A DNA stretch of 64,000 nt, taken from the IMG/VR virus record IMGVR_UViG_3300032180_000001, positions 96,001 through 160,000 of that record; one strand, 5' to 3'. Below the pieces are notes generated by a model, which saw only the letters and a program-made list of their open reading frames with translations, made no database searches and was not told where the DNA came from. The position numbers and the translations under genes are program-made. Positions 3,001-64,000 of this stretch are shown here, one piece after another (the stretch's first letter is position 1; every line of letters begins with the position of its first letter). The stretch comes from a virus.

Positions 3001-6000
3001 CACACCGCCACTCTTGCTGGCCATTGCGGTGAGCGCACTTCCGTATAGTTCGAATACCTGCGGGCGAACTTGATCCTGCAGCGCACTGAAAGAATTACCT
3101 AGTGAACTTACCTTTGTCGTAACGCCACCTGCTTGAGCGCCTAGCTTCTGAAGACTACCGCCTGCCGACACCACCATGAAATTCATCTGCGTGCCCATAG
3201 CCGTCGTCACAGTACCCAGATTTTTCACATATGTGGTAACCTGCGTAACCGCATCTTTGGCAGCAAGAGCAAATCCGCCGAGACCGAGCGCCAGCGTAGC
3301 CAGCGCCGGAATCCAGACGGCAAAAATTTCAACAGCCAGTTCCATGGCGATATGCCAGAGCTTGACGCTTTTCGCCGCACCATTAAATGCCTGAACCTGC
3401 TGCTGCATCCAGCCGAACCAGCCACCCGCACCCTTTGTGAGGAACGGGGTAATACCACCTCCGCCGGCTGCACCTGCCGCACCTGCTGCAGCGGCTGCAA
3501 GAACTCCACCCCCTCCACCGCCCTTGCCCCCGCCTGCACTCCCAGCCATAGTAGTGGCCATGACGGAACGCAATCTCCCGTACGCAGAGGCGAGATCTTT
3601 CACCCGGGCGATGTCTCCGGCGGTAGCCTTACTGAGGTCTATACTAGCTATATCTTTCAGTTCATCCTGAAGTCTTATCGCTTCGACAGCAATATCAGCT
3701 AGTACCCTCTTGGCGGAATCGCTGTCAACATGAGTTGCAAGGCTTATCAGGGTTTCCTTTATCTTCTTCGACTCAGCATCAAGCATAAATAGCTTATTCA
3801 TCGCCTCCGTAATGTCAATATTAGCGGCTGCGGTCTGCGGTGCAAGAAACTTCTGATATTCTTTAAGTGCAGCTTCCTGAAGTTTGCCGAGATCATTCCA
3901 GTCTTTCGTCATTTTCCGGGCTAGGTCATCCCAGGCTTTCCGCTGGTCCGCGTCAAACTTAAGATTATCCTTATTAGCGGACGCTTGCAGCTTACTGAGA
4001 TCATTCCAGTCTTTTGTCATTTTCCGGGCTAGGTCATCCCAGGTCTTCTGCTGATCCGCACCACCAGCAGCGCCACTCGCCGTATGCGCGGCTTTGACCC
4101 GCTTCAGTTCCTTTTCTGCCTGACTTAGCAGGGTTACCATCCGGATAACAGTGTCCGCCGCTGCCGCCTGGCTCATGAGGTCGACAGTCGACTGCTTCAT
4201 CTCATTCGATAGCTTGCTCTGCTCAATCCGGAGAATCATGGCCTGAGCAGCAGAATAACCGGCCTTCTCACCGAGATCAGACGTTGCAGCGTCAAGTTCC
4301 TTTAGTTTTGCTATCATATCAGCAGGAATAATAGTATTAAGCGGTTCGAATGCCTTTGCTGACTTTGCTGCCTGCGCTGCTGTTGCCGCCATAGTCGCGC
4401 CCAGTCCGCCGGTACTATCGGCTGCGGCATCTGCTGCCTTTTCCTGTACTTTTTCCGCAGCAGCAGCCAGGTACTCAGCCGCAGCCATCCCGCCTATCGC
4501 AGCGGTGGTGACAGTATATCCCTTATCAGCATAACCCCTAACGCCACCCTGACTTGACTCCCCGTATCCCTTGGCGTAAATAGCCCGGACGCGCTCAACC
4601 TCAGCAGCAGTCGTTTCAACTGTGTTCTTGAGCTTACCCCACTTACTAATTTGCAAGGTGATCGAAGTGTCCGCTGCTGCCGTTACCCGCTGATACTCCT
4701 GAAGGAAGCCTTTGCCCGTACCTACTTTCTCCGTCCAAGTGACTAGCTCCGCTGTTGCTTTCTCCATCGCCGGTGCCAGATTAACTTCCGGGGTGATCTT
4801 TGGCTTTTCCGTTGCGATTTTTTCGTCGAGCGCTGCTGCTTCCGCTAGTGCCGGTTTTTCATCAAGCTTCGGAGTAACAACCGGCGTATCAGCTTGATTG
4901 AAAGCAGCTTTCGCAGCCGTAGCAGCCTCTTTACTGCCATTCTCTATCGCCGTCCTGAACTCCCGGGTCGCGGCTTCCTTATTTACAGTTAGCGGCACCG
5001 CGACGGGCTTCATGACCTCCCCTACCCGGGCCTTAGCCGCCGTCATCATCATGTCCTGATACAGCTTATCGCGTGCTGCTTCCGACATCTTCGGCTCAAC
5101 AGGCACCTCGACTGGCTTACTGATCTTCGCGTCAAGCGCTGCCACCTCCGCCGTCGCCGGTCCCAGATCAACCTTCGGCTGAATGAATTCTTGCGACGAT
5201 ACTCGGTGCTTGTATTCCCCGCCGACAAACATGGCCTGCTGCCGCTGAAGATCTGTCAATGTCTGCTGGTTATGCTGCGGGACAAGGTTAACTTTCTGAT
5301 CCCGGTAAAGCTGGACTAGTGCTGCATCTAGATTCTTAACACCACTGAGCGCCGCCCGCAGATCCGTCAGGTTGATGTATCCTCCGGGCCTGTCCCCGCC
5401 TGCGGTTGCCATACTGCGGATCGTGGTCATAATCAGCTTGTCGAGCGCCATAACTTCCGTCATGGCCGGAGCCGTGTCCGCAGTAATCGACACCTCGGGC
5501 TTCTCTGCTTCTATAGCTTTGTCAAGCGCTGTGCATTCTGCCATGGCAGGAGCTGTGTTCAGTTCGGGGGTAACGACGGGCTTAGCTGCGGTAAGAGCAG
5601 CCTGAAATTTTTCCTGAACCTTGCGCATAAGAGCGGATGACTCGAAAGCTGCAAGGAACTCATTTATATCCGGAACAGCTTCGACAGGAACGGTTAGCTT
5701 AGTACTACTCCATTGTGCGCCAAGTGCCTGTGCGGCGGCAAGATTAGCATCCTCAACTTCTGTTCTATAGGTATCAAAAAATTTCTTCTGTGCCTTCGTC
5801 AGCGGAACCGTGATCGCCTCAGCAGTTGCGTCACCCGCACCCTTCATCGTTGTCCGGACCTTGTCGGCAAACCCGGTTAGCGCTGTCTCCGACTCTTCTA
5901 TGCTCGGCCCGAGATCAACCGGTATCTCAACAGGATTGGCCTTCACCTCCGCAACAGCCGCGGTAACAGCCGTTGCGACCTCCGGCATGACCTTCGACGT

Positions 6001-9000
6001 GTCCGCAGTGAACGGAACGCTTGCCGCCGCCGCCGCTGCCGCCTCTTGCGCGGCCTTCTTCAGCCTGGCTTTCATCACCATGTCGGCCTGCTTCTCCGAC
6101 AGCCCGGCCGCGATCAGCTCCGGTATCCCTCCCGCGACGGGCTTGTACTCTTCCCGCCCGACCGACATCTGCACGCTCTTCATAAAGTCGGCCATATTGG
6201 CTTTAACCGGGATTGTCCGGCTCTGAGTTATCCGCGCCATCTCCGCCTGGATCTCGGCTTCGCTGAACTTAGCCTTCATTTCGACTGGATGAGCTGCAAT
6301 CTCGGCATCCGCCACCGCGACTACCTTAGCTACCTCCGGGGTAATCACCGTTGTGTCTGTCTTGATTTGTTCCACAATCGGATTAGCCGCTGCCCAGGCG
6401 CTTGCTGCTTTTTTCGCTTTATCTAGATCATCATCCAGGTCTTCCAGGTAGTCAGCCGCAGGCCGAACAGATACCGTAGCAATAATCTTATAACCGGTTT
6501 TTGATGCATAGCTACCAGAACTTGGGTAGGCTGACGCATGAGGGGCATTATCTGCCGGATTTACGGGGGCGACCTGGTACGTATATCGACCAAGCAGGTT
6601 AGCCGCATTTGGTTTCTCATTAGCCCACGCCAGTCCGCTCCTACCGGGGTTAATGATATCTCCGACATCTAGCTTCGCATTAGTTGCGTGAAACAGGTCC
6701 TTTACCTCAGTGACGGCAGCAGTGGCCTCTGAGATAATTTTTTCTGTGTCAAGTTCTACCGGAATTTTAGTGTTCCTGTACTTAGCCTTTATGGCGGCTA
6801 GCTGCGCCTCAATCGGATCTTTATTTATATCTGGCGTGAACTCCATCTTCATCGACTTCATAATCTCGGCGACCGACTTGTCCGGCACCGGTACTGCGTT
6901 CTCCGGCTTATACAGGACCTGAGTAGCGCCCTTAAATACATCCTTCGAAGGGACGTCGAACGACCGGACAACGAAACCAAGCTCTTTCAGCTTAGGCAGC
7001 CATTCATCAAACCAGGTGTTCAACTGCTTCATGTCCTCGAATGCGCTGCGAGCACCTTCGCTGAAAAGCTTTATTGCCTTGTCTTCACTGACGATGTTTC
7101 CAAGAAGCGAGTCTTCCCAGACAGGAGGGTGCTCCCAATCTCGGGCGTTGTGCGTTGATGGTGCCGTCTCGGACACGCCAGGACTGCCCGCGTACGGCCC
7201 CCTGCCGGTCTCTGCATGCTCAACGCGGAAGATGCGAGTCATCTCCTGCTTTACTGCGGCTTCAGCAGCTTTGTCCATAACAGGCTCAACCGTAACCGGC
7301 AGGGCTTCAAGGTGAATATTCCGAACGCCCTCAATAATTTGATCTTTAAGTACCTTAAACGGCTGATTTCTCGGGAAGGTAAATTCATGTGCGTCGTCCG
7401 GGAGATCCCCCAGGGCTATACTCTGCCTATTCAGGGCCTTGACTCCCGGTCCTGCAGTAATTTTCATCAAGGTGGTGCCGAATGTTTTTGCTACATCCTC
7501 CGACACTGCGGCGCTAGTGTAGCCCTTATCCTGGATTATCTGACCGGTCTTACTCCCAACACTACCGAGAATCTCATCAGGCTTATTAACACCCCGAAAC
7601 AAAGTAACCTGCTGAGTAAAATCTGATACTTTATTAATCAGGGAGTCAATATCTGAGACAATACTAGCAACACCATTATCCTGAGTACTTCCAGCACCCC
7701 CGACTGATAGACCCCTTAGTTGATCCTGTATTGTCTTGAAAGACCACTCGTAATACCTTTTCATAGCAAACAGGTCGTCTTCAGTCGTGCTGCTAGGAGT
7801 CCCTTCGCTGGACTTAGCTAGTTTCATTCCTGACAAAGCCTGCTTCATCTCCCGGGAGGCATCCCTGAACTCCCCAGCAGACATCTGCACGCTTCGCATA
7901 AAGTCGGCCATTGACGATCCAGCGCTCGCGGTCGGGCCAGGCCCTGCAACCCCCGCTCCCGCAACCCCCGCTCCCTCAAGCCCAGAAGAATCAACCCGGA
8001 TCTTGACCGTCCGGTCCCGGGTGACGATCTTCAGCATCTCTTCGGCCACATCGATCGAACGGTCATCCAGGTCGGCCCGTATCCTCACCATGCGCTCGGC
8101 GGTCAGCGCGTCCAGTGCCGCCTGCGCCGCAGCCGAGTCCAGGACGACGTCGATCTCAAGGTCCTGTCCCGGCGGGAGTACGAGCTTTCCAACGTCAAAC
8201 GTCACCGGAATCTGGGTAGTAAGGCTGCGAAGCTCCGCCAGCTTCCGGTCCAGATCAGCCGTGTTGATATCGATGCTCAGGTAGTCGGACAGACCGGTTT
8301 GCGCGATCAGCTTCTTGATCAGCATGAGCTGGCTGCGGATCTTCGACTGAGGCACGTTAACATCAGCGAAGTCCGCCAGGCCAGACTGGGCTGCCAAAGT
8401 CTTCAGCTTCGCGAACGCCGCAGGAGCGCCCTCAACATTGACGCCGACATCAACCGTCCGGTCCGCCGTCAGGGCATTCAGCTCCGTTTTCGCCGCCGTC
8501 ACAGAACCAGGCTTCAGGTAAAACTCGACCGGAATATCCGCCACGACATCCTGAGTAACGGCGGCAACCTTAACCTGCAAGCCAATTGCGGTACCCAGAT
8601 TGAACTCAGCCGGAATATCCGCCTTAACGCCTTCGGTAACCGCATCAACCTGAGCCTGCAGTCCGCCCGAGCCACCGCGGACACCAAGATCGACAGGAAC
8701 GAGTGCGCTGGCGCCTTCCGCCATGGCATCAATCTTTACCTGAAACTCGGCCCGAGATGGCATGTTAAGGTCAACCGGTATCTTGGCTCCGATACCCGCA
8801 GTCAGCGTCTCAACCTGAGCCTTCATTCCTGTTTTAGTTCCAGTCAGGTCAACAGGTACCTTCGCCTTGATTCCTGCAGTCAGCGTCTCAACCTGAGTCT
8901 TTACGGCTGCCTTTGAAGGAAGCTTAAATTCGACTGGTATCTTTGCCTGAATCCCCGCGGTCAGCGTCTTAACCTGGCCTTGCAATTTAGTCTTAGTCCC

Positions 9001-9159
9001 AGTCAGCTCAATTGGAACCTTTACCTGCAAGTCATGATCAGTAAGAGCCAGCTTGTTAACTTCCCCCACCGCAGTTTTTACCTGCTTGGTAAGATCAGCA
9101 AAAAAACCGTCATCATTTGGTTTAATGTTAACGTAGGCCTCTCCCAAAAGACGGGCCAC
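1..9159 (-). CDS. Tape measure protein, >3053 aa, 3' end outside the window; contains an internal ADP-ribosyltransferase block
   Basis: GTG at 9159 opens MARLLGEAYVNIKPNDDGFFADL..., next to the stop of the neck gene. The same frame is still open at position 1 (...IQEGAVIFDGMRHEGAHLWDEAISGLSGL). The ORF track reports no stop-bounded ORF from this start, consistent with an open 3' end. Ala/Gly-rich amphipathic repeats and position after the tail chaperones fit a TMP. Confidence 0.92.
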   Translation of the reverse strand, partial: MARLLGEAYVNIKPNDDGFFADLTKQVKTAVGEVNKLALTDHDLQVKVPIELTGTKTKLQGQVKTLTAGIQAKIPVEFKLPSKAAVKTQVETLTAGIKAKVPVDLTGTKTGMKAQVETLTAGIGAKIPVDLNMPSRAEFQVKIDAMAEGASALVPVDLGVRGGSGGLQAQVDAVTEGVKADIPAEFNLGTAIGLQVKVAAVTQDVVADIPVEFYLKPGSVTAAKTELNALTADRTVDVGVNVEGAPAAFAKLKTLAAQSGLADFADVNVPQSKIRSQLMLIKKLIAQTGLSDYLSIDINTADLDRKLAELRSLTTQIPVTFDVGKLVLPPGQDLEIDVVLDSAAAQAALDALTAERMVRIRADLDDRSIDVAEEMLKIVTRDRTVKIRVDSSGLEGAGVAGAGVAGPGPTASAGSSMADFMRSVQMSAGEFRDASREMKQALSGMKLAKSSEGTPSSTTEDDLFAMKRYYEWSFKTIQDQLRGLSVGGAGSTQDNGVASIVSDIDSLINKVSDFTQQVTLFRGVNKPDEILGSVGSKTGQIIQDKGYTSAAVSEDVAKTFGTTLMKITAGPGVKALNRQSIALGDLPDDAHEFTFPRNQPFKVLKDQIIEGVRNIHLEALPVTVEPVMDKAAEAAVKQEMTRIFRVEHAETGRGPYAGSPGVSETAPSTHNARDWEHPPVWEDSLLGNIVSEDKAIKLFSEGARSAFEDMKQLNTWFDEWLPKLKELGFVVRSFDVPSKDVFKGATQVLYKPENAVPVPDKSVAEIMKSMKMEFTPDINKDPIEAQLAAIKAKYRNTKIPVELDTEKIISEATAAVTEVKDLFHATNAKLDVGDIINPGRSGLAWANEKPNAANLLGRYTYQVAPVNPADNAPHASAYPSSGSYASKTGYKIIATVSVRPAADYLEDLDDDLDKAKKAASAWAAANPIVEQIKTDTTVITPEVAKVVAVADAEIAAHPVEMKAKFSEAEIQAEMARITQSRTIPVKANMADFMKSVQMSVGREEYKPVAGGIPELIAAGLSEKQADMVMKARLKKAAQEAAAAAAASVPFTADTSKVMPEVATAVTAAVAEVKANPVEIPVDLGPSIEESETALTGFADKVRTTMKGAGDATAEAITVPLTKAQKKFFDTYRTEVEDANLAAAQALGAQWSSTKLTVPVEAVPDINEFLAAFESSALMRKVQEKFQAALTAAKPVVTPELNTAPAMAECTALDKAIEAEKPEVSITADTAPAMTEVMALDKLIMTTIRSMATAGGDRPGGYINLTDLRAALSGVKNLDAALVQLYRDQKVNLVPQHNQQTLTDLQRQQAMFVGGEYKHRVSSQEFIQPKVDLGPATAEVAALDAKISKPVEVPVEPKMSEAARDKLYQDMMMTAAKARVGEVMKPVAVPLTVNKEAATREFRTAIENGSKEAATAAKAAFNQADTPVVTPKLDEKPALAEAAALDEKIATEKPKITPEVNLAPAMEKATAELVTWTEKVGTGKGFLQEYQRVTAAADTSITLQISKWGKLKNTVETTAAEVERVRAIYAKGYGESSQGGVRGYADKGYTVTTAAIGGMAAAEYLAAAAEKVQEKAADAAADSTGGLGATMAATAAQAAKSAKAFEPLNTIIPADMIAKLKELDAATSDLGEKAGYSAAQAMILRIEQSKLSNEMKQSTVDLMSQAAAADTVIRMVTLLSQAEKELKRVKAAHTASGAAGGADQQKTWDDLARKMTKDWNDLSKLQASANKDNLKFDADQRKAWDDLARKMTKDWNDLGKLQEAALKEYQKFLAPQTAAANIDITEAMNKLFMLDAESKKIKETLISLATHVDSDSAKRVLADIAVEAIRLQDELKDIASIDLSKATAGDIARVKDLASAYGRLRSVMATTMAGSAGGGKGGGGGGVLAAAAAGAAGAAGGGGITPFLTKGAGGWFGWMQQQVQAFNGAAKSVKLWHIAMELAVEIFAVWIPALATLALGLGGFALAAKDAVTQVTTYVKNLGTVTTAMGTQMNFMVVSAGGSLQKLGAQAGGVTTKVSSLGNSFSALQDQVRPQVFELYGSALTAMASKSGGVMQKLITDTGTALDRTAARIAVDMNKASSGTGLSNFIKMGQRDIAGLATAFANLGALLGALAGITQRTHIAEIMLGIGVAVTKLFRVVADFIHTPFGGALAAWAIGLHALYAWSGLAATALLNLVERLGIGLAAAKGWAVVGPMFEALGGRIARFGEVLKGLGPAAVSGAIFIAAALAAVVVWAVKAQDAMQKYASAQIAAVANSTPITMLSTTENSLKNVTAAWRQAVASGSADARTLGQSRQQLLGDFTLESERLVQISKLYGISLPAAMQLAQTAGVKVSDFTNADNKAWATSMQMIASLVTGYLNMGQTMGMVGSDMNVLSVTANDQVTAINNLTSAWDTWYGIVTGTQTSMATFGQSMKTFNTDIASGTSTYDTVNTDFQSLLTNANSLVDANMKAGASGPQLTSSIADTGAAMVTAAGNNKTWQAEVVSWVQRAAPYVTTFQQATNWISQMGGSLTKLQGNQNAVTIGNSNLTGKAAALAHTLQSDLTPAQQALVGSTGKVQTALAKFTTDLGKGNKAAASKDRVQLLADLKSVGIYGPDAAKYVNDLANYTLNLGKATTAAKPGTSSFSDTIQSLRLNLKQIIDVVGIPLMHGLNLFAGWVKDISKNTAGKLFLESIAVTLAGIALLKFTGVTSLFKALSGSSLLGRLTGGLLGGKVDGSNAAALMRTAFEEGGTSAAAMIREALVSGGATVATEETAGAATGGKFGPPTGIPGARGTSDVVQGGELAAGGFFSRFGTWFKGLFGKAGGGAEGAGGEGLLRGAGGTALIAAIIGQVLGRVSNAVVGKPTQASNLATYNKTVPGWFQPIANLLFTRQGAANISVGGANAVTGFFTGHRTSDSGQGGPRDPNSVVGALGSSSKTIGGVFHTAWAGVFTGFQHDVADKIYDFFVGSKGSDLKGFLSNTLKLFDGFWSIIAQGFHNRFVHAIGDSFPHEMAVVFDGARHEGAHLWDDAISGLNGLVNRAIQEGAVIFDGMRHEGAHLWDEAISGLSGL
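3890..4045 (-). repeat. 108-bp-period tandem repeat within the TMP (WDDLARKMTKDWNDL x2)
   Basis: gagatcattccagtcttt(c/t)gtcattttccgggctaggtcatcccagg occurs near 3890 and 3998. Confidence 0.85.
6472..6696 (-). other. Arr-like (H-type) ADP-ribosyltransferase domain inside the TMP
   Basis: Hand translation: LFHATNAKLDVGDIINPGRSGLAWANEKPNAANLLGRYTYQVAPVN...SYASKTGYKIIATV. This follows the rifampin-ART Arr pattern FxHGTxAxLxxGDxL...YxVxP...SY. Confidence 0.65.
6901..7236 (-). other. Phage 'YRVE..GPY..HP..WF..GF..G..QV' globular domain inside the TMP (possible ART-like fold)
   Basis: Hand translation: RIFRVEHAETGRGPYAG...EHPPVWEDSLL...SAFEDMKQLNTWFDEWLPKLKELGFVVRSFDVPSKDVFKGATQVLY. The pattern resembles small free-standing phage proteins; the fold assignment is inference. 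Confidence 0.5.
7310..7790 (-). other. VIP2/C3/Alt-like (R-S-E clade) ADP-ribosyltransferase domain inside the TMP
   Basis: Hand translation: ...MKRYYEWSFKTIQDQLRG...SDIDSLI...TLFRG (R at 7594-7596)...IIQDKGYTSAA (S-T at 7513-7518)...AKTFG..LMKI..GPGVKAL...AHEFTFPRNQPFKV (E at 7384-7386). Confidence 0.85.
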
Positions 9160-9160
9160 A

Positions 9161-9556
9161 TCACACCGTCCCTTCTAGATCGAACAAGCCGGTGGTAAGG
9201 AACGGATAAGAGTTAGCCTCGGAACCTGGGCCGCCCGGCCCGTGCATCTGGATAGCAGGATGTTCCAGGAACACGGTGGGATTCGTCGGTGCTGCCGCGC
9301 TGCCGTAAATATGGCCGGTGTCATCCCAGCCGACGTACGGGTGCGTGAGTTCCTTGGTAAATCCCGGAGGCCTAGCGTTACTGCCCCGTCCAGTCCGGGC
9401 CGAAGCAGGCGTCCCTGGGCGAACATGCACCACAGCGATCGCGACTGCCGCAGCCCGGTCCGCGAGATCGAGCATCAAAGGTGCGACGAGACCCGTAGGA
9501 GAATTCAACATCTCAAATACCGCCTCTTCTGAGATATGAACGTCATCCACGTCCAA
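9161..9556 (-). CDS. Putative neck/tail-completion (HK97 gp10-like) protein
   Basis: 131 aa with a strong RBS (aaggagg). Lies between the tail chaperones and the TMP. Confidence 0.5.
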   Translation of the reverse strand: MDVDDVHISEEAVFEMLNSPTGLVAPLMLDLADRAAAVAIAVVHVRPGTPASARTGRGSNARPPGFTKELTHPYVGWDDTGHIYGSAAAPTNPTVFLEHPAIQMHGPGGPGSEANSYPFLTTGLFDLEGTV

Positions 9557-20631: not shown

Positions 20632-21712
20632 TTACAGGTCGTCTAGCGCCCGCAGCAGCTTCCTGGCGTTCGCTTCGAAAGTTCTGTCGGCAACAGCTTC
20701 CCGCGCCTGCTCCGCTATCTTGCCCCGTTCTGCCTCGTGCGTGATATACCAGTGCAGGATTTCGCTGGCATCTTCCGGGTCGGTGAACCGCGGCAGCATG
20801 TGCAGCACTTCGTCTCCTTCCGGGCGCGCGTCCCGAAGGAAGGGCAATCCGATGGCCGCCATCTCTACCTCGCGCGGCCCCATGGCCCAGCCCTGGCCAG
20901 CGTAGGCGTCTTCGGACTCACGCCGGTACAGATTGATCCCCATCTTTGCGTGCCGGTACAGCTCCGCCGTTTCCGTGTTGTCCACACAGGTATCGCGACC
21001 GTGCCCGATATACTTCCGCAGCCTGCTGTCCGGTGCCAGCTCCTCGTCCCAGTAATTGCCGCCAAGCAGCACGTCGAGGTTCCCCAGATCGAGGCGCTCG
21101 AAAAACTCGGCACGGCTCTTGAAGCAGGTTCCGATGAAGGTCAGATCGGCAGCCAGCTCCGGGTTCACCGGCCCGCGCCGAGGGTAGTGCACGTCCGGGC
21201 GGTACGCGTGCGGCATGTACAGCGCCGGGCCAAGTTCCCGGTACGCAGCGATATTAACTGGATCGTTGAGGAGGTTCAGGTCAGCATGCTGAGCCCGGTC
21301 CAGTTGCTCTCCGTCCTGATAAGTAAGGCGATTCTGTATGAAGGATCACTTGCTTCATTTTCCGTAGCTTGAAAAGCTGGAACATGCCCCCGGTAATAAA
21401 GAACCCGGACACGTACAGAATAACGTCAGGCCAGAAAGTCATCGCCGCGTGGGTCAGCCCCTGCATCGACATGACGATGGCGTCCTTTTGACTCTTCACG
21501 GCCTGCTCGACGACAGGAAGCCCCTGTTCGTCCGTCACAATGTTGCCATGCTCATCTGTTTTCGGAAGAAGAGCCTTGGAATAAAACACGAGCCGATCGT
21601 TCAGGTTATACATAAGGACCTCATTGCCCAGCTCGCGCAATGCATCAGCCCATCCGTAGTAAACATCAGCAACCGAGAAGTCCGGGCCGGGGTGACATAT
21701 CAGAATACGCAC
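20632..21712 (-). CDS. CgeB/GT-B-like glycosyltransferase split by a +4 nt discontinuity at a UUA codon (21325-21319)
   Basis: The N-part (MRILICHPGPDFSVADVY...HTESPY) and C-part (QDGEQLDRAQHADLNLLND...DLTFIGTCFKSR...MGPREVEMAAIGLPF) are in different frames, joined at CCT TAC T TAT CAG. Confidence 0.8.
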
Positions 21713-28907: not shown

Positions 28908-29867
28908 TAACCAGCATGTTATACAGACGAGTCCATTACCACCGTTCCCGCCTGCACCGCCTGTAACTCCACCGCCTCCGCCTCCGCCGCCACAGCCGAT
29001 AGCACCATCGCCACCACGGCCACCGATACCAGCGCTAGCCGATCCGCCACCCGTTCCCCCGAAGAATACCCAGGTTAGATTGGTATAACTAGCTCCGGAC
29101 ACTCCGGCACCTCCCCCGCCTGCGACCCCGGTACCCCCAGGAAAATTAGCCGGAAAAAAATTAGGCCCTACACCTGAATATGTATTCGAATACGGTGTTA
29201 TACTACCGCCATTTGTATCGCCATTTGCAGCTGATGCGCCCCCTCCGCCGCTGCCTCCGGTTGTCATTATTCCGCCTGCAGCAAGAGTCACACCTGTAGC
29301 ATTTCCTGTTCCATTCCCGCCAGCGGAGGCGGAGGCGATAATGGAACTAGCTGATACCATCCCGACCATACCATAACCAGCATAAGACTGACTTCCATTT
29401 TCACTAGCCCCAGCTGCACCGCCCACACTAGCTGTCCCGGCTGATCCGAAAGCTGCCGACTGGTTTGAATTAGTTACAGCAAGAGCAGGGGCCTGACCGC
29501 CTATATTACTGCCGCGCATGATGTCACCAAATAGTCCTACGGCAGTAACATCGCCCGAAGAGCCGTTTGAACCAGCCGCACCGCCCGCACCGCCAGTCCC
29601 TGCATAAACATATAGAGAGGCAGGCAAGAGAAATGCCGGGACCAGGTACCGTACAGATGCCCCGGCGCCGCCACCGCCTCCGCCGCCACGTAGTGTAGAA
29701 GTGGCTCCAGAATAGCCTCCTCCGCCACCAGCCCCGGGTCCGATCAGCATCATCCAGACCATGGTAATCCCTTTTGGTTTTGTCCATATCTGACAGGAGT
29801 TTAGACCGATATTGTAAAACACCTGCTGCCGGTCACCTGTATCTGGCCAGCCAAAAAAATCAGGCAT
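28908..29867 (-). CDS. Glycine-rich virion protein; stop lost, so it reads through a TTA into the HNH ORF
   Basis: WTKPKGITMVWMMLIGPGAGGGGG...GGNGGNGLVCITCW, then TTA GGA instead of a stop. Confidence 0.75.
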
Positions 29868-58755: not shown

Positions 58756-59448
58756 ATGACCAGTGGACGTAACCCTGACTACATCCCGGGCAAGACCTGC
58801 GAGAACTGCGGGAAGCCTATTCCGTGGCGTCCCGGGATAGAGGTGCGAGCGAGAGCCCGCTGGTGCAGCAAAGACTGCTTCCAAACCGCTGGACGCGATG
58901 CTGCACCTAAGCCGTGTGAAAACTGCGGCAAGCCAATCCCGTGGCGGGAAGGCCGCGCAGCCCGTACTAAGGCTCGCTTCTGCTGCGACGCCTGTAAATT
59001 CGCTTGGCAGAAGCTCCACCCGCCGAATCCACGACAACCTCGGGAAACGAAGCCATGCGACACATGCGGCAAGCCTGTCGAGTACCTTCCATCCCAGAAG
59101 CTGGCAAGTAAGTACCCGAACGGAAACATCTACTGCTCCCGAGAATGCTTCGGTATCGGGCATTCTAAAACCATGACGGGACGCCGTCCCAGCGGAGGCA
59201 TCTATACCTCGCCCAGCACCTTCCGACTGATGATCCGACGCGAATTCTTCGACCGCTGCGCCATCTGCGGCTGGGACACAACCCCGTGCGACGTCGCGCA
59301 CATCATCGATCGGAAAGACGGCGGACCCGACTCGCTGGAGAACGTTGTGATGCTGTGCCCGAACCACCACCGGGCCTTCGACATGAAGTTGATCCCCGTC
59401 GAGACAATCCGGCTGGCACGAGAAACGATCCTGCGTAATCATCAGTGA
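58756..59448 (+). CDS. HNH endonuclease with CxxC..CS Zn-finger repeats; probably leaderless
   Basis: CAICGW...DVAHII...GGPDSLENVVMLCPNHHRAFD; TGtTATACT 6 nt before the ATG. Confidence 0.88.
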   Translation: MTSGRNPDYIPGKTCENCGKPIPWRPGIEVRARARWCSKDCFQTAGRDAAPKPCENCGKPIPWREGRAARTKARFCCDACKFAWQKLHPPNPRQPRETKPCDTCGKPVEYLPSQKLASKYPNGNIYCSRECFGIGHSKTMTGRRPSGGIYTSPSTFRLMIRREFFDRCAICGWDTTPCDVAHIIDRKDGGPDSLENVVMLCPNHHRAFDMKLIPVETIRLARETILRNHQ

Positions 59449-62133
59449 TCACCGTGCCCGTTTCCGTTACCATTCATTGATCCGGCCAGGACTGACCGCT
59501 CCGCATCGGACGGTATCCACGCCCCAACGTATTCAGGCTCGACCTTTTCCGCACGAGCCCGTCCTTCACGCGCCAGCGCCCGCAGGACAGCTATCAGACC
59601 ATCCGTGGACAGATCTCCGGCATCTCGCGTCTTCGTCAGAACGGCTGCAAGCAATGATGCGGGAGATTTCGCAGACGGCTCAATATTAGGCTGCGCGATA
59701 CCTTCCTGCTGAAGCTTTTCCAGCCGGTCTGCGGCTAGGTCCATCTCCAGCGTAATCTGGGGAAGCATGGAGTTCGGAATGCCGCGAATAGAGTGAGCCA
59801 TCGCGACCATGACATCCGCCGGGATAACCTCATTGCCTGCCCCGCCTGGAAGTGGCCCCATGTCTTCCTTCTCGCGAATCTCGTCGATGGTCAGGATCCC
59901 CGTGTCCCGCTGAGACTCGTAGATCTCCGTCCGGGTCTTCAGATCAGTCTTCAGCAGCGCGTCAGAATTAAAGCGAACGTACCGGTTAGCGGGAATAATA
60001 TCGAAGAACGCGGTCTCTAGCCTAACCATCCACGGACGCAAGGATTCAATGACCTGAAGGGTACTCATCTCTACCGTGTTGCCAGTAAAATAGCAGGTGC
60101 CGTTCCGACGCGCATACCAAGACTTACTTGGCGTACTTACACACCATACAAGATCTGTAACCTCGTCGGTCACGTACTCCGGATGACCCTTCGGCTTACG
60201 CCACGGTGAAATCTGAATCGGCATAACATACATACCATGCTTATTCGGTCCCCGTACCACGCCCGAGCGTCCAGACAGTGCGCAGGCAACCTGGAACGCA
60301 TCAAGCCGCGCTTTATCCTTCTGTGCCATCGTCCAACTTGCGGCATGCCGAGAGCCATCAGCATCGAGGGACGTTTGAATGAAAAGCTCAAGCTGTGCCC
60401 TGGTAAGCTGGCTCAGAAATTCCGTAGAAACTACCTTAGCAGGAGCATGCTTTGTCAGCACCTGCCCAGCTTGCGCGTTCAACCTGAAATGCACGTGCCC
60501 CCGCTCGTCCAGGTCTTCCTGCCATGCCGGACCGCCATCGTGCTGTCCCGTAAGACCATTTCGCAGATTTCGCACCACACTCGCGTGTGAACCGCACTTC
60601 CGAGCTATTCCCCGATTCGTCCCACTCGGATCACGAAGTAGCTCAACCCGGATAAGATCCCGCTTCTTCCGCCCACGCCCGCCTAGCAACGAAACGCCAC
60701 GCTCTACAGCACTTGGCCCAAACATCTCCGTCAGCGCTGCCCTAATCCGCATTACGTTCAGCGGGTTCACTCGCTCCGACTGAGCAATTGTCACGGCACC
60801 TGATTCCCCGATCCATCCCTCTGTCCAGAACCAAGCCACCAACTCAGCTAGTGCGTCCGACCACTTCGGCTCTACCGGAGTCACAACCGGAGCCGCCGCG
60901 CAGACCCGCGAATTAATCGGCATAGTTTCTGTAGTTCGCCACTGGTAACCTTCGTTTCTGCGCCTTTCCCCAGACAACATCACAGGCCAACGATGATTTG
61001 GCGTGGTTACCGACGAATGTGACAGGTTCTCCAGGCGGATAACCGGATAAGACGCGTCATCAAAAACATGTACCTTTTGAACTGGCTGCCATTCAGCCAT
61101 ACCCGTTTCAGTATTCAGTCCAAGACAAGTGTCCCCGGCAAGCACCTGATCGTGCCTCAGCCAACCGCGCAAGGTTAGGATTTCCGTCTCAGCATCAGCG
61201 CAGTTGTAGGTTAGACTGTCAGCCCTTTTCCCGCCAACGCGATCCGGAGGAAGCCCATAAATGGCAGCAAGCTGGGTAGCGCTAAACTGCTGACTCTCGA
61301 TGAATTGAGCTTCAGACGGCGGAACTGTTATCGGCTTGTATTCCCAGTCTCGACCGTAGACGAGTGGCGTATGGTTCCGGATCGCATCGACTAGCTGCTC
61401 CTTGATCTGGTCAGACGCATCCTTATCCACTTCCAGCTGATTATTCTGAAAGGTGCCTGGTGGAAAACCACCGGAAGCGAACCAGTCGTTGCCAAACCGC
61501 TGGGCTTCCGTTCCCGACGAGATCGTCAGCATGAAATGCCGTAGCGGAGAAATACCCTCCGTACGGCCGGGGAGCGTAAATGCCCGGATATGAAAAAGCT
61601 CGTCACGCCAGTTTTCAATCAACCGTCCGTAGACGTACACCCGGGTACGAAGGGGATTCCATGGCTGCTGCGGGTCATCAATGACGTTAACCATGTCCGG
61701 CGGAATCCAATCGATTCCAGTCGGGTAACTAAAGCCATCGCGACCGGTGACGAAACCCCAGGCGTTTCCGTGCAGGAGCAGTGATGTCATGCACTGGTAC
61801 ACCCAGTCAAAGGTGTTCGCGCTGACTGATGGCCGATCAAAAATAGACGGTCCCCAGTACCTGGCCGCAACGCCACCGCCGGGGGCTCGTGTGTAAAGCT
61901 TGATTGGCAGGCTGGCGAGAGATTCGGCTAGCAACCGGACGCAGGAATAGAGTGCCGGAAGACCGAGTGCCTGATCCTGGCCGTAGAACGCCCGGGACGG
62001 ATGAATCGGCCCACCTTGCGAAAATTTGAAGTAAATAGGGTGAATCCCATGGACGAATTAATCGCCATGGAACTCCGCCGATAACGCGCTGCTCAACACT
62101 TCTGTCAGCCAAGATGCGATCAAGGAAACCCAT
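59442..62133 (-). CDS. HK97-type portal protein, needing a +4 nt recoding event at 62037-62031 and intein excision
   Basis: N-part MGFLDRILADRSVEQRVIGGVPWR(LIR)PWDSPY joins FKFSQGGP...ALGLPALYSCVRLLAESLASLP...LLHGNAW...GISPL...QLAAIYGLPP...|intein|...TIDEIREKED. Confidence 0.88.
60078..61202 (-). mobile_element. Intein with LAGLIDADG endonuclease and an HTH-like insert (375 aa)
   Basis: CADAETEILTLRGW...TTPNHRW...AWFWTEGW...SLDADGS...DLVWCVSTPSKSWYARRNGTCYFTGN followed by Thr. Confidence 0.92.
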
Positions 62134-62174
62134 AACCCCTACCACCTCCCTCCGCCTACTGCTAGAATGGAACT

Positions 62175-63358: not shown

Positions 63359-64000
63359 ACCGGCATCCTAAGGCAGATGTTCTCCGCTAAGCGCACAGAG
63401 CTGAGAAGGTCGTAGCCGCGCCTCTTCTTCCCGAGCGCCCAGCTAGCCAGGGTAACGGCAACGATCGGCGTAATATCAGCCTCGCTGTCGCGTCGTGACC
63501 AGCCGCGCCCGCCATCTCCGATCTGCCGGGTTTCGGCACTGCCGATCGCAGACCACAGCACAGGTGCCTGCTCCCTGCCGAGATGAATGACCTGGCGATC
63601 ACGGATGCCGGTGACAATCTGAGCAAATGCAGCAGCCTCATCAGCACTGCCGGCCGCCAGCACTTCAATCCCTGCCTGCTCTGCCGCGTCAATCAGCCCG
63701 GCCGCCGGTCCGTTCTTCGGAATGCAGACAGCAGCAGGATGGTACTCGCGGTTCAGCTCGACAAGCCGGGGGATGACCCAGTCCGTACCCTCGCGAGAGC
63801 AGCCGCGGGGGATCTCCAGCACCGTTCGATACCTCGTCCTCGGTGGTGACAGAGGAAATTTTTCCTCGAGCTTCGGCTCTGGCCGTTCCCAGGCCGCTCC
63901 GATAGTAGTGACAGTCATCTCCGGGTTGACATCAACCGCGAAGGCCAACGGTCGGACCGCACCACCGGGATCTCCCAGGGCACACTGACTCCAGGCTTCT
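63355..64000 (-). CDS. terL: Terminase large subunit, C-terminal nuclease domain (5' part outside the window)
   Basis: FAVDVNPE...IGAA...DWVIPRLVEL...GPAAGLI...HLG..Q..L..A...A..R.IGDGG.GW.RR.S..DITPIVAVTLA.W; lies upstream of the portal. Confidence 0.85.
   Translation of the reverse strand, partial: EAWSQCALGDPGGAVRPLAFAVDVNPEMTVTTIGAAWERPEPKLEEKFPLSPPRTRYRTVLEIPRGCSREGTDWVIPRLVELNREYHPAAVCIPKNGPAAGLIDAAEQAGIEVLAAGSADEAAAFAQIVTGIRDRQVIHLGREQAPVLWSAIGSAETRQIGDGGRGWSRRDSEADITPIVAVTLASWALGKKRRGYDLLSSVRLAENICLRMPV

What the first reader, a model, noticed from the sequence alone, without database searches (positions are those of the whole stretch)
62028..62040. Portal gene is frame-split at TAT-TTA-C: a matched Tyr hop is needed to make an essential protein
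Seen: CCC [TAT] T [TAC] TTC. Codon 33 is TAT (62037-62035) and the A-site codon is TTA (62034-62032). Reading on terminates at 61837. Re-pairing on TAC (62033-62031) resumes at TTC (62030) in the portal frame, giving ...DSPY|FKFSQGGP...ALGLPALYSCVRLLAESLASLP, the canonical HK97 portal N-terminus. Established: portal is essential. Inference: since the protease, capsid and tail genes are intact, this is programmed bypassing rather than decay.
Basis: partly seen in the sequence, partly recalled or inferred. Interest (0 to 1): 0.93.

Follow-up and report, generated by a model that had tools for sequence, protein, structure and literature searches.

The report
Ribosome hop in phage portal gene
The essential portal gene of this uncultured 185-kb soil phage is interrupted after codon 33 by four untranslated bases that begin with the very rare codon TTA. 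About 40 related phages carry differently built versions of the same interruption, so ribosomes most likely stall on TTA and hop over it, a decoding trick so far proposed only for a few Streptomyces phage terminase genes.

Summary
On the minus strand, ATG 62133 opens 33 codons that end in TAT (62037-62035). TTA follows, this frame dies at TGA 61837, and the portal frame resumes at TTC 62030.

Joining TAT directly to TTC gives ...PWDSPY|FKFSQGGP..., with no residue added or lost against in-frame homologues.

- **Family-wide pattern.** Of 93 related portal 5' ends, 41 carry 50 TTA-led gaps of 2-13 nt. 39 of these are not multiples of 3. All lie within 13 codons, and almost all end in a codon cognate or near-cognate to the one before TTA.
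- **TTA avoidance.** The same genes have no TTA in 46,314 downstream codons.
- **Second gap in this phage.** A glycosyltransferase gene carries TAC[TTAT]CAG. All 26 aligned homologues read straight across it.

The best reading is UUA-triggered translational bypassing of the phiHau3 terminase kind (Smith 2013; Antonov 2023). That makes this a new member of a known kind, in new genes and with a very short gap.

Three things are unproven. There are no expression data. The host and its tRNA-Leu(UAA) are unknown. At this one site a +4 hop cannot be separated from a +1 shift that adds a second Tyr.

The portal also carries a LAGLIDADG intein. This scan has found the same phenomenon before on other DNA (e1-5692636, e1-5354816, e1-5706998, e1-5347797).

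The parts
62142..62150 (-). Shine-Dalgarno-like GGGAGGTGG upstream of the portal start
   Evidence: Read directly. Relatives have GGAGGTG 9-12 nt before their ATG.
62035..62133 (-). Portal codons 1-33 (MGFLDR...GGVPWRLIRPWDSPY), in the frame of ATG 62133
   Evidence: Translation. The same N-terminus is fused in frame to the portal in homologues P0011, P0016, P0058, P0045 and P0002 and in many loci.
62053..62064 (-). Site A. Take-off CGA (62064-62062), TTA (62061-62059), ATT, landing CGT (62055-62053). This 9-nt gap is frame-neutral: it reads RLIR if translated and R if hopped.
   Evidence: It is the commonest gap site in relatives (21 carriers, 6-12 nt, mostly out of frame). The take-off codon is always CGA in Arg carriers, 18/18 against 5/55 in gap-free genes.
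62035..62037 (-). Site B take-off codon TAT (Tyr, codon 33)
   Evidence: Gap carriers at this position use TAT 4/4. Gap-free genes with Tyr here use TAC 31 and TAT 2.
62031..62034 (-). Site B coding gap TTAC. The hungry codon TTA is 62034-62032; the overlapping landing codon TAC is 62033-62031.
   Evidence: The same TAT[ttac] occurs in L083 and L103, and TAT[ttat] in L102. A near-identical relative (run X2) reads CCT TAC TTC AAA with no gap.
61203..62030 (-). Portal N-extein, resuming at TTC 62030 (FKFSQGGPIHP...DSLTYN)
   Evidence: Pfam PF04860, E 1e-52. 246 homologues, the best 72-74% identical.
61837..62034 (-). Dead-end continuation of the ATG frame if TTA is decoded as Leu (LLQIFARW... 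to TGA 61839-61837). It would give a 98-residue product from ATG 62133.
   Evidence: It has no family hit.
60078..61202 (-). 375-residue intein with a LAGLIDADG homing endonuclease inserted in the portal (LTYN|C...FTGN|T)
   Evidence: It is absent from intein-less homologues (consensus DSLTYSTVEQ). 3,568 relatives sit inside unrelated proteins. The AlphaFold model has pLDDT 92.4 and matches the TliVMA intein 7qsu (E 5e-15), PI-SceI and PI-PfuI.
59442..60077 (-). Portal C-extein and stop codon (59444-59442)
   Evidence: The second Phage_portal stretch lies here.
62042..62075 (-). Predicted hairpin whose loop UUAAU holds the site-A UUA. Its 3' arm ends about 5 nt before the site-B take-off codon.
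   Evidence: It is not significant as a whole (z -1.6 for 96 nt) and is listed as a possible signal only.
21316..21325 (-). Second hop site of the same phage, in a CgeB-like glycosyltransferase gene. Take-off TAC (21325-21323), gap TTAT (21322-21319), resume CAG (21318-21316).
   Evidence: The downstream half holds Pfam Glyco_trans_1_2, E 2.6e-14. 26 of 26 aligned homologues read ESPYQD or ESPYED (one ECPYQD) straight across the junction.

Best explanation
The four bases TTAC (62034-62031) are an untranslated coding gap inside the portal gene.

**Proposed mechanism (inferred)**
1. A ribosome that started at ATG 62133 reaches codon 33, with peptidyl-tRNA-Tyr on UAU in the P site and UUA in the A site.
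2. UUA is almost unused by this phage and is presumably decoded very slowly in its host.
3. During the stall the peptidyl-tRNA lets go of UAU, which is a weak wobble pair.
4. The mRNA slides 4 nt and the same tRNA re-pairs with UAC.
5. Decoding resumes at UUC, giving ...PWDSPY-FKFSQGGP... and the full-length portal precursor. Its LAGLIDADG intein must then be spliced out.
6. Nine codons upstream, CGA-UUA-AUU-CGU is a second gap of the same design that happens to be frame-neutral.
7. If UUA is decoded as Leu at site B, the ribosome runs into a dead-end frame and makes a 98-residue peptide. Portal output therefore depends inversely on UUA-decoding capacity. This could act as a throttle, or as a sensor of host state.

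**What is shown:** the anatomy, the exact fit of the hop product to homologues, the family-wide design rules, and a second site in the same genome.

**What is inferred:** stalling, take-off and re-pairing, efficiency, and any regulatory role.
For: **1. Exact fit.** The hop product aligns to in-frame homologues with no indel. A near-identical relative in run X2 reads ...GAC TCT CCT TAC TTC AAA... with no gap at this site, while carrying a 10-nt gap (CGC TTAATAC CGC) at site A.

**2. Design recurs.**
- 41 of 93 unique related portal 5' ends carry 50 TTA-led insertions at 9 positions within 13 codons.
- Lengths are 2-13 nt, and 39 are not multiples of 3.
- The last triplet is identical or synonymous to the codon before TTA in 36, matches 2 of 3 bases in 11 (mostly Trp and Met, which have no synonym), and is otherwise in 3.
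- Several gaps hold stops in other frames (L002 TAA, L209 TAG), so a +1 slip cannot resolve them.

**3. Translated between the gaps.** Seven genes have two out-of-frame gaps around PWDSP[YF]W. Codon differences there are 41 synonymous against 13 non-synonymous, including AGY/TCN serine switches.

**4. TTA is otherwise avoided.**
- There are 0 TTA in 46,314 portal codons (4,360 Leu) downstream, and none of those frames is cut short by a stop.
- This phage has 1 TTA in 18,757 core codons of its 25 longest ORFs, against 4.25 per 1000 expected from positional base composition.

**5. Take-off codons are weak-wobble codons.** 35 of 49 end in A or T, against 148 of 788 at the same positions in gap-free genes (Fisher 2e-14). 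Arg is always CGA (18/18) and Tyr always TAT (4/4).

**6. A second gene has the mirror site.** The glycosyltransferase carries TAC[TTAT]CAG, verified against 26 homologues.

**7. Precedent.** UUA-mediated bypassing of 10-nt and 7-nt gaps in phiHau3, StrepC.1 and S. catenulae terminase genes, with full-length product seen in Streptomyces and a junction peptide by mass spectrometry in E. coli (PMC10732093).
Against: - There is no protein, ribosome-profiling or RNA evidence.
- Read-level confirmation failed: nothing from the probable source run X1 was laid.
- The host is unidentified, so scarcity of tRNA-Leu(UAA) is inferred only from the phage's codon usage. The record carries no tRNA genes.
- At this 4-nt gap the landing codon overlaps TTA, and a Tyr match has about 50% prior probability.
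- A +1 event that reads UAC in the A site would give one extra Tyr, which might be tolerated.
- No significant RNA structure was found, and enrichment of Shine-Dalgarno-like codons upstream is weak (8/20 against 10/73).
- Even for phiHau3 the experimental support is partial. The E. coli assay needed UAA in place of UUA.
Confidence: 0.8

Rival explanations
1. This is a +1 ribosomal frameshift rather than a hop. While UUA is vacant, Tyr-tRNA reads the overlapping UAC in the A site (Ty3-like), giving ...SPYYFKF.... Alternatively, peptidyl-tRNA-Pro slips from CCC to CCU one codon earlier, giving ...SPIYFKF....
For: The gap needs only a net +1. UAC lies exactly in the +1 A-site position. Hungry-codon +1 shifts are established (Ty1, Ty3, prfB; my own knowledge).
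Against: Either product has one residue more than every in-frame homologue. Spacing between SP[YF] and KF is invariant, and ESPY-QD is invariant in 26 glycosyltransferase homologues. UAU cannot re-pair at +1, where the codon is AUU. Sister gaps of 5-13 nt, some with stops in the +1 frame, need true bypassing. For the CCC slip, the A-site codon UAU is not a rare codon.
Confidence: 0.1
2. The portal is translated from a downstream start such as TTG 61934, and the 33-codon upstream ORF is a separate leader peptide or uORF.
For: The portal frame has an in-frame TTG at 61934. Gene callers on relatives often chose such internal starts, for example MASLP... in P0003, P0004 and P0007.
Against: The segment GGVPWRPWDSPYWKFSQGGPxHP spans the break and is one continuous, conserved coding sequence in 50 of 93 relatives. 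TTG 61934 has no Shine-Dalgarno motif and would delete 32 conserved residues and the first 8 Pfam model positions. The truncated calls in relatives are explained by their own TTA gaps.
Confidence: 0.04
3. This is a broken gene or an artefact: a decaying phage, or an assembly or sequencing indel.
For: It is a single metagenomic contig.
Against: The same design appears in 41 independent assemblies, always starting with TTA. A second site of identical design sits in another gene of the same contig. Everything else in the portal is open and conserved, the terminase is intact, and the record is 99% complete by CheckV. A 4-nt indel in a non-homopolymer is not a typical short-read error.
Confidence: 0.03
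4. The gap is removed or neutralised before or outside translation. Examples are RNA editing or splicing of a few bases, or quadruplet decoding by a special tRNA.
For: None directly. It would also restore the frame.
Against: No such system is known for 2-13 nt blocks in bacteria or phages. Gap lengths vary too much for quadruplet decoding. The take-off and landing codon rule is a translational signature. The record has no tRNA gene.
Confidence: 0.02

Closest known systems
UUA-mediated translational bypassing in the large terminase genes of Streptomyces phage phiHau3 and of the StrepC.1 and S. catenulae prophages (Smith et al. 2013; Antonov et al. 2023, PMC10732093)
   Same: A very rare in-frame UUA sits directly after the last conserved codon. 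It is followed by a short non-coding block that breaks the frame of an essential morphogenesis gene. Take-off and landing codons match. Homologue alignments leave no room for extra residues. Two gaps can occur in one gene. The phage genome otherwise avoids UUA.
   Different: The gene here is the portal (plus a glycosyltransferase), not the terminase. The gap is 4 nt with the landing codon overlapping UUA, against 10 and 7 nt. The phage is an uncultured 185-kb record of 59% G+C with an unknown host. The design is frequent in the family (41 of 93, against 3 of 100 ter genes) and clustered in a 13-codon hot spot. There is no experimental test here.
Phage T4 gene 60 bypass (50-nt gap)
   Same: Peptidyl-tRNA take-off and re-pairing occur at matched codons (GGA...GGA in T4). 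The gap lies early in the gene, after codon 46 in T4 and after codons 24 and 33 here.
   Different: T4 uses a stop codon after take-off, a take-off stem-loop, a nascent-peptide signal and a 50-nt gap. Here the trigger is a rare sense codon, the gap is 4 nt, and no specific RNA or peptide signal has been shown.
Hungry-codon bypassing and short hops in E. coli reporters (Weiss et al. 1987; Gallant and Lindsley 1998; Gallant et al. 2003; cited in PMC10732093)
   Same: A starved or slow A-site codon lets peptidyl-tRNA slide to a cognate codon a few bases downstream. Hops of +2, +5 and +6 are documented.
   Different: Those are low-level laboratory events in artificial constructs. Here the event is required for an essential gene and is conserved in nature.
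Byps, the mobile bypass elements in Magnusiomyces capitatus mitochondria (Lang et al. 2014; Nosek et al. 2015)
   Same: Many gaps with matched take-off and landing codons are scattered in coding genes and patchily distributed among relatives.
   Different: Byps are 27-55 nt, GC-rich and structured, mitochondrial, and triggered by an unassigned or stop codon. The gaps here are 2-13 nt with no conserved spacer.
Mycobacteriophage Bxb1 gp50/gp51 primase overlap with a rare UUA (PMC12646305)
   Same: An actinophage gene is split over two frames with a rare UUA at the overlap. The authors suggest a frameshift or a bypass.
   Different: The mechanism is unresolved there. It is a different gene, and no matched-codon analysis is reported.

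Membership tests
UUA-triggered translational bypassing (phiHau3 type) | An in-frame UUA lies immediately 3' of the last codon that aligns with homologues | tested here: met
   TAT(33)-TTA. Alignment to 93 relatives.
UUA-triggered translational bypassing (phiHau3 type) | A short block, not a multiple of 3, interrupts a conserved essential gene that is otherwise intact | tested here: met
   The block is 4 nt. The portal frame is open for 862 codons after it. Pfam PF04860.
UUA-triggered translational bypassing (phiHau3 type) | Take-off and landing codons are read by the same tRNA | tested here: met
   TAT and TAC here. Across the family, 36 of 50 are identical or synonymous and 11 match 2 of 3 bases. 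At this single site the match has about 50% prior probability.
UUA-triggered translational bypassing (phiHau3 type) | The junction leaves no room for extra residues in homologues | tested here: met
   X2 relative reads SPYFKF; glycosyltransferase site.
UUA-triggered translational bypassing (phiHau3 type) | UUA is exceptionally rare in the phage, and its tRNA is limiting in the host | tested here: inconclusive
   Rarity in the phage is met: 1 in 18,757 core codons and 0 in 46,314 portal codons. The host and its tRNA-Leu(UAA) are unknown.
UUA-triggered translational bypassing (phiHau3 type) | A full-length product and a junction peptide are observed | not testable with these tools
   No RNA or proteome data. 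No RNA run is listed.
UUA-triggered translational bypassing (phiHau3 type) | Stimulatory signals are present (stem-loop, internal Shine-Dalgarno) | tested here: inconclusive
   A hairpin forms around site A, but z is -1.6. Shine-Dalgarno-like GG codons occur upstream in 8/20 against 10/73.
T4 gene 60-type bypass | A roughly 50-nt gap, a stop codon after take-off, a take-off stem-loop and a nascent-peptide signal | tested here: not met
   The gap is 4 nt, the A-site codon is a sense codon, and no such signals were shown. It works like this system but is not a member.
Classical +1 programmed frameshift (prfB or Ty1 type) | The P-site tRNA can re-pair in the +1 frame on a slippery codon | tested here: not met
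   UAU would have to re-pair with AUU, which gives no pairing.
HK97-family phage portal (Pfam PF04860) | Match to the family model above the curated cut-off | tested here: met
   179.8 bits against a cut-off of 39.1.
Class 1 intein with LAGLIDADG homing endonuclease | Hint fold plus endonuclease fold; Cys1; C-terminal Asn followed by Thr/Ser/Cys; block B TxxH; absent from homologues at the same site | tested here: met
   The model has pLDDT 92.4. The best structural matches are inteins: 7qsu at 5e-15, then PI-SceI and PI-PfuI. Boundaries are C...TPNH...FTGN|T. Intein-less homologues lack the insert. No Pfam, NCBIfam or PDB sequence hit was found. The penultimate residue is Gly, not His.

The most novel reading that the evidence does not exclude
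The portal 5' end of a large clade of uncultured soil phages, with records up to about 235 kb and actinophage-like packaging genes, may be a natural hot spot where UUA-led coding gaps are repeatedly gained, reshaped and lost. On the tree, 21 carriers at one site need at least 19 changes. The gaps would be kept because they tie virion assembly to the host's capacity to decode UUA, acting as a throttle or as a sensor of host physiological state. The 50 gaps would then be a ready-made natural library of bypass rules: weak-wobble take-off codons (CGA, NNU), cognate or G.U-tolerant landing codons, and spacers of 0-10 nt with no constraint. The W/P-rich nascent peptide GGVPWRPWDSPYW might act as the local stalling signal.
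Probability: 0.35. Interest if true: 0.85.

Novelty: new member of a known kind. Interest (0 to 1): 0.7.

Why it matters
Natural translational bypassing is known from very few systems: T4 gene 60, Magnusiomyces mitochondria, and three Streptomyces phage or prophage terminase genes with partial experimental support.

This case puts the phiHau3-type mechanism into new genes, the portal and a glycosyltransferase. It also shows a near-minimal 4-nt gap.

Through the relatives it gives about 50 independent natural variants. From these, testable rules can be read off: which codons allow take-off, how exact landing must be, and that the spacer is free.

It has a practical side too. Gene callers systematically truncate or split these essential genes, as in the MASLP... 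and MEVFSQGGP... calls. Phage annotation and completeness tools should therefore look for TTA-led gaps in high-GC phages.

If the gaps sense tRNA-Leu(UAA) availability, they would be a simple translational switch between making and not making virions.

Tried and rejected
- **Relatives of a virus record.** These are not drawn by the tool.
- **Host search.** 400 sampled Actinomycetota genomes held no close portal relative, so the host is not identified.
- **Reads.** Run X1, the probable source, holds all sampled words, but nothing was laid. No RNA holder is listed. There is therefore no pile-up evidence either way.
- **Whole-genome ORF-based scans for TTA hop sites.** These were not discriminating. 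On the related loci, control codons gave the same candidate rate as TTA.
- **False candidates.** Window 8627 and 56956 are false, because the real frame runs straight through.
- **Candidates not resolved.** Window 28910 (TGG TTA GG, at an HNH cassette) and 23856 (CGG TTA TGGCC CGG).
- **RNA structure around the site.** Not significant.
- **Shine-Dalgarno-like enrichment upstream of site A.** Weak.
- **Sequence searches for the 375-residue portal insert.** Pfam, NCBIfam and PDB sequence searches found nothing. Only the fold comparison identified it as an intein.
- **Cultured phages.** None is closer than 32% identity in the portal, so no laboratory phage with this site is at hand.
Full report
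**Observation**

On the minus strand a Shine-Dalgarno-like GGGAGGTGG (62150-62142) precedes ATG 62133. The ATG opens MGFLDRILADRSVEQRVIGGVPWRLIRPWDSPY, with codon 33 = TAT at 62037-62035. The next codon is TTA (62034-62032). Reading on gives unrelated sequence up to TGA 61839-61837.

The +1 frame is closed upstream by TAA 62060-62058. From TTC 62030 it reads FKFSQGGPIHPSRAFYGQDQALGLPALYSCVRLL..., an HK97-family portal (Pfam PF04860, E 1e-52). The first possible start codon in that frame is TTG 61934. It has no ribosome-binding motif and would delete conserved sequence.

**What homologues show**

Full-length in-frame homologues read ...GGVPWRPWDSP[YF]-x-[KR]F..GGP.HP as one continuous sequence (P0002, P0011, P0016, P0058, P0045). 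The window has PWDSPY in the ATG frame and FKFSQGGP in the +1 frame. Leaving out exactly TTAC gives PWDSPYFKFSQGGP, with no residue gained or lost.

Many metagenomic homologues had odd N-termini, such as MEVFSQGGP, LGFAFLEVFSQGGP and MASLP. Their DNA showed why. The closest relatives are broken at the same place, some at two places, and always in the same way.

**Survey of relatives**

I fetched 160 related loci from viral and metagenome collections. I aligned 99 unique 5' ends to the conserved peptide with a frameshift-tolerant dynamic programme. 93 aligned well.

- 41 of the 93 carry at least one TTA-led insertion. There are 50 such insertions, at nine positions within 13 codons.
- Lengths run from 2 to 13 nt, and 39 are not multiples of three.
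- The insertion almost always ends in a codon identical or synonymous to the codon before TTA (36 cases). Examples:
  - CGA[ttaatttcga]
  - CGA[ttaacgc]
  - TCT[ttaggtaatcc]
  - AAT[ttaat]
  - GTT[ttagagtt]
  - TAT[ttac]
- 11 more match two of three bases. These are mostly Trp and Met, which have no synonym.
- Spacers share no sequence.
- Several gaps contain stop codons in the other frames, so a simple +1 slip cannot resolve them.
- Seven genes have two out-of-frame gaps around PWDSP[YF]W. That short segment lies in a third frame and still evolves mostly by synonymous change: 41 synonymous against 13 non-synonymous differences, including AGY/TCN serine switches. It is therefore translated in its own frame.

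**TTA is otherwise avoided**

Downstream of the hot spot, the same 93 portal genes contain no TTA in 46,314 codons (4,360 of them Leu), and none of those frames is cut short by a stop. In this phage, TTA occurs once in 18,757 core codons of the 25 longest ORFs. Positional base composition predicts 4.25 per 1000. The record is only 59% G+C, and other A/T-rich codons are used normally. The record has no tRNA genes.

**Take-off codons are special**

At the positions that carry gaps, the codon before TTA ends in A or T in 35 of 49 cases. In gap-free genes the figure is 148 of 788 (Fisher 2e-14). Arg is always CGA (18/18 against 5/55). Tyr is always TAT (4/4, against TAT 2 and TAC 31). Val is always GTT.

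These are the codons with the weakest wobble pairing, and landing codons are often the stronger NNC partners. This fits peptidyl-tRNA dissociation and re-pairing. It does not fit a DNA-level target-site duplication, which would give exact repeats.

**Direct support for the predicted product**

A 151-nt contig from an unrelated aquatic run (X2) matches 61970-62034 and continues upstream as ...TGG CGC TTA ATA C CGC CCT TGG GAC TCT CC|T TAC TTC AAA. This close relative has a 10-nt gap at site A and no gap at site B, where it reads SPYFKF in frame. That is the product predicted for the window. The evidence is thin: one contig at depth 3.

**A second gap in the same phage**

A CgeB-like glycosyltransferase gene is split at CCT TAC [TTAT] CAG, with TTA at 21322-21320. 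The downstream half holds Glyco_trans_1_2. Read without the four bases, it matches about 350-residue homologues at 60-81% identity across the junction. All 26 aligned homologues read ESPYQD or ESPYED (one ECPYQD) straight across it. Two genes with the same Tyr-TTA-Tyr design in one genome argue strongly against random damage or assembly error.

**Site A in the window**

Nine codons before the break, CGA TTA ATT CGT (62064-62053) has the same design at the commonest gap position of the family. Here its length of 9 nt is frame-neutral. It gives RLIR if read and R if hopped. Most homologues have only R.

**Mechanism**

The best-supported reading is UUA-triggered translational bypassing.
1. The ribosome stalls with UUA in the A site.
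2. Peptidyl-tRNA-Tyr unpairs from UAU.
3. The mRNA moves 4 nt and the tRNA re-pairs on UAC.
4. Decoding resumes at UUC.

If UUA is decoded instead, a 98-residue dead-end peptide results. The anatomy and its evolutionary conservation are shown. The stall, the re-pairing, the efficiency and any regulatory meaning are inferred.

For this particular 4-nt gap, a +1 event that reads UAC in the A site and adds a second Tyr cannot be excluded from sequence alone. It is disfavoured by the invariant spacing in homologues and by the sister gaps that need true bypassing. A hairpin with the site-A UUA in its loop is predicted but is not significant. Enrichment of Shine-Dalgarno-like codons upstream is weak.

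**Distribution**

On a maximum-likelihood tree of the portal N-exteins, gap presence is almost unstructured. Site 9 has 21 carriers and at least 19 changes. Site 16 has 10 carriers and 9 changes. The Tyr site has 4 carriers and 4 changes. This means frequent gain and loss, or recombination of the 5' end. The direction cannot be told. Once a gap exists, its spacer is free to change length, so many variants at one site may descend from one insertion.

**Comparison with what is known**

UUA-mediated bypassing was proposed in 2013 for the terminase of Streptomyces phage phiHau3 (two 10-nt gaps) and a prophage. It was extended in 2023 to a third case with a 7-nt gap, making 3 of 100 terminase genes. 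Full-length product was seen in Streptomyces, and a junction peptide was found by mass spectrometry in E. coli after UUA was replaced by UAA (PMC10732093). A rare UUA at the Bxb1 gp50/51 overlap has been noted as a possible bypass (PMC12646305).

I found no paper that describes such gaps in portal genes, or a family-wide survey.

The window is therefore a new member of a known kind. What is new:
- the genes involved;
- the 4-nt gap with its landing codon overlapping UUA;
- the high frequency and clustering of gaps in this clade;
- the codon rules that the natural variants reveal.

This scan has already met the same phenomenon on other DNA. One earlier report appears to concern a relative in my own alignment (CGA-TTA-A-CGC in a 164-kb phage, my L071).

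**Context**

The window lies in an IMG/VR virus record of 184,980 b that is 99% complete by CheckV. The terminase large subunit (window 63355 to beyond the edge) is intact (phrog_9, E 7e-60). Its cultured relatives are almost all actinophages, and the closest cultured portals are 32% identical. An actinobacterial host is likely, but this is an inference.

The portal also carries a 375-residue insertion (61202-60078). The fold identifies it as a LAGLIDADG intein: pLDDT 92.4, with best matches TliVMA intein, PI-SceI and PI-PfuI. It has 3,568 relatives embedded in unrelated proteins. Making a working portal therefore needs at least one ribosomal hop plus protein splicing.

**Verdict**

- Confidence that a programmed recoding event at TTA makes the portal: about 0.9.
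- Confidence that the event is the +4 Tyr hop: about 0.8.
- Interest: 0.7.

Noticed in passing
window 60078-61202 (-): The portal gene carries a 375-residue intein with a LAGLIDADG homing endonuclease (LTYN|C...FTGN|T, penultimate Gly instead of His). Pfam, NCBIfam and PDB sequence searches do not detect it. The predicted fold matches TliVMA, PI-SceI and PI-PfuI inteins. 3,568 relatives are embedded in unrelated proteins, sometimes several per protein.
   Followed up: yes
window 21316-21325 (-); gene about 20632-21712 (-): A CgeB-like glycosyltransferase gene is split by a second 4-nt TTA gap, TAC[TTAT]CAG. All 26 aligned homologues read ESPYQD or ESPYED (one ECPYQD) straight across it. Both 4-nt gaps of this phage follow the peptide SPY (codons CCN-TAY).
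   Followed up: yes
whole record G000 (184,980 b): TTA is nearly absent from credible genes: 1 in 18,757 core codons of the 25 longest ORFs, against about 80 expected. The record is only 59% G+C, CTA, ATA and AGA are used normally, and it encodes no tRNA.
   Followed up: partly
L196 (Ga0302324_100223788), portal 5' end: One relative has CGA[aaaccgc]CCC at the usual Arg site. It has the same take-off and landing design, but with AAA instead of TTA as the first gap codon. This may mean a second slow codon can trigger the event.
   Followed up: no
window 63388-63390 (-), near the end of the terminase large subunit gene (63355 to beyond the window edge): The intact 582-residue terminase has a single TTA at codon 571 (CGC TTA GCG), in its non-conserved tail, with TAG in the +1 frame. 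Its meaning is unknown.
   Followed up: no
window 28908-28910 (-): TGG TTA GG AAT lies at the junction between a glycine-rich ORF and an HNH-like ORF (CECGRHKG), which together form one 495-codon open frame. The design resembles the TGG[ttagg] gaps of related portals, but a hop here would leave the frame. Unresolved.
   Followed up: partly
window 1-9174 (-), running off the window start: A giant open reading frame of about 5,181 codons (record 89632-105174) contains no in-frame TTA.
   Followed up: no
L003 1-1171 (IMGVR_UViG_3300044814_000069): In a close relative, the gene upstream of the portal, presumably the terminase, is 886 residues long and carries a LAGLIDADG_3 domain. Inteins or homing endonucleases seem common in the packaging genes of this clade.
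   Followed up: no
run X2 contig on window 61970-62034: A near-identical relative from an aquatic metagenome has a 10-nt gap at site A and none at site B. Close relatives therefore differ in which gaps they carry.
   Followed up: partly
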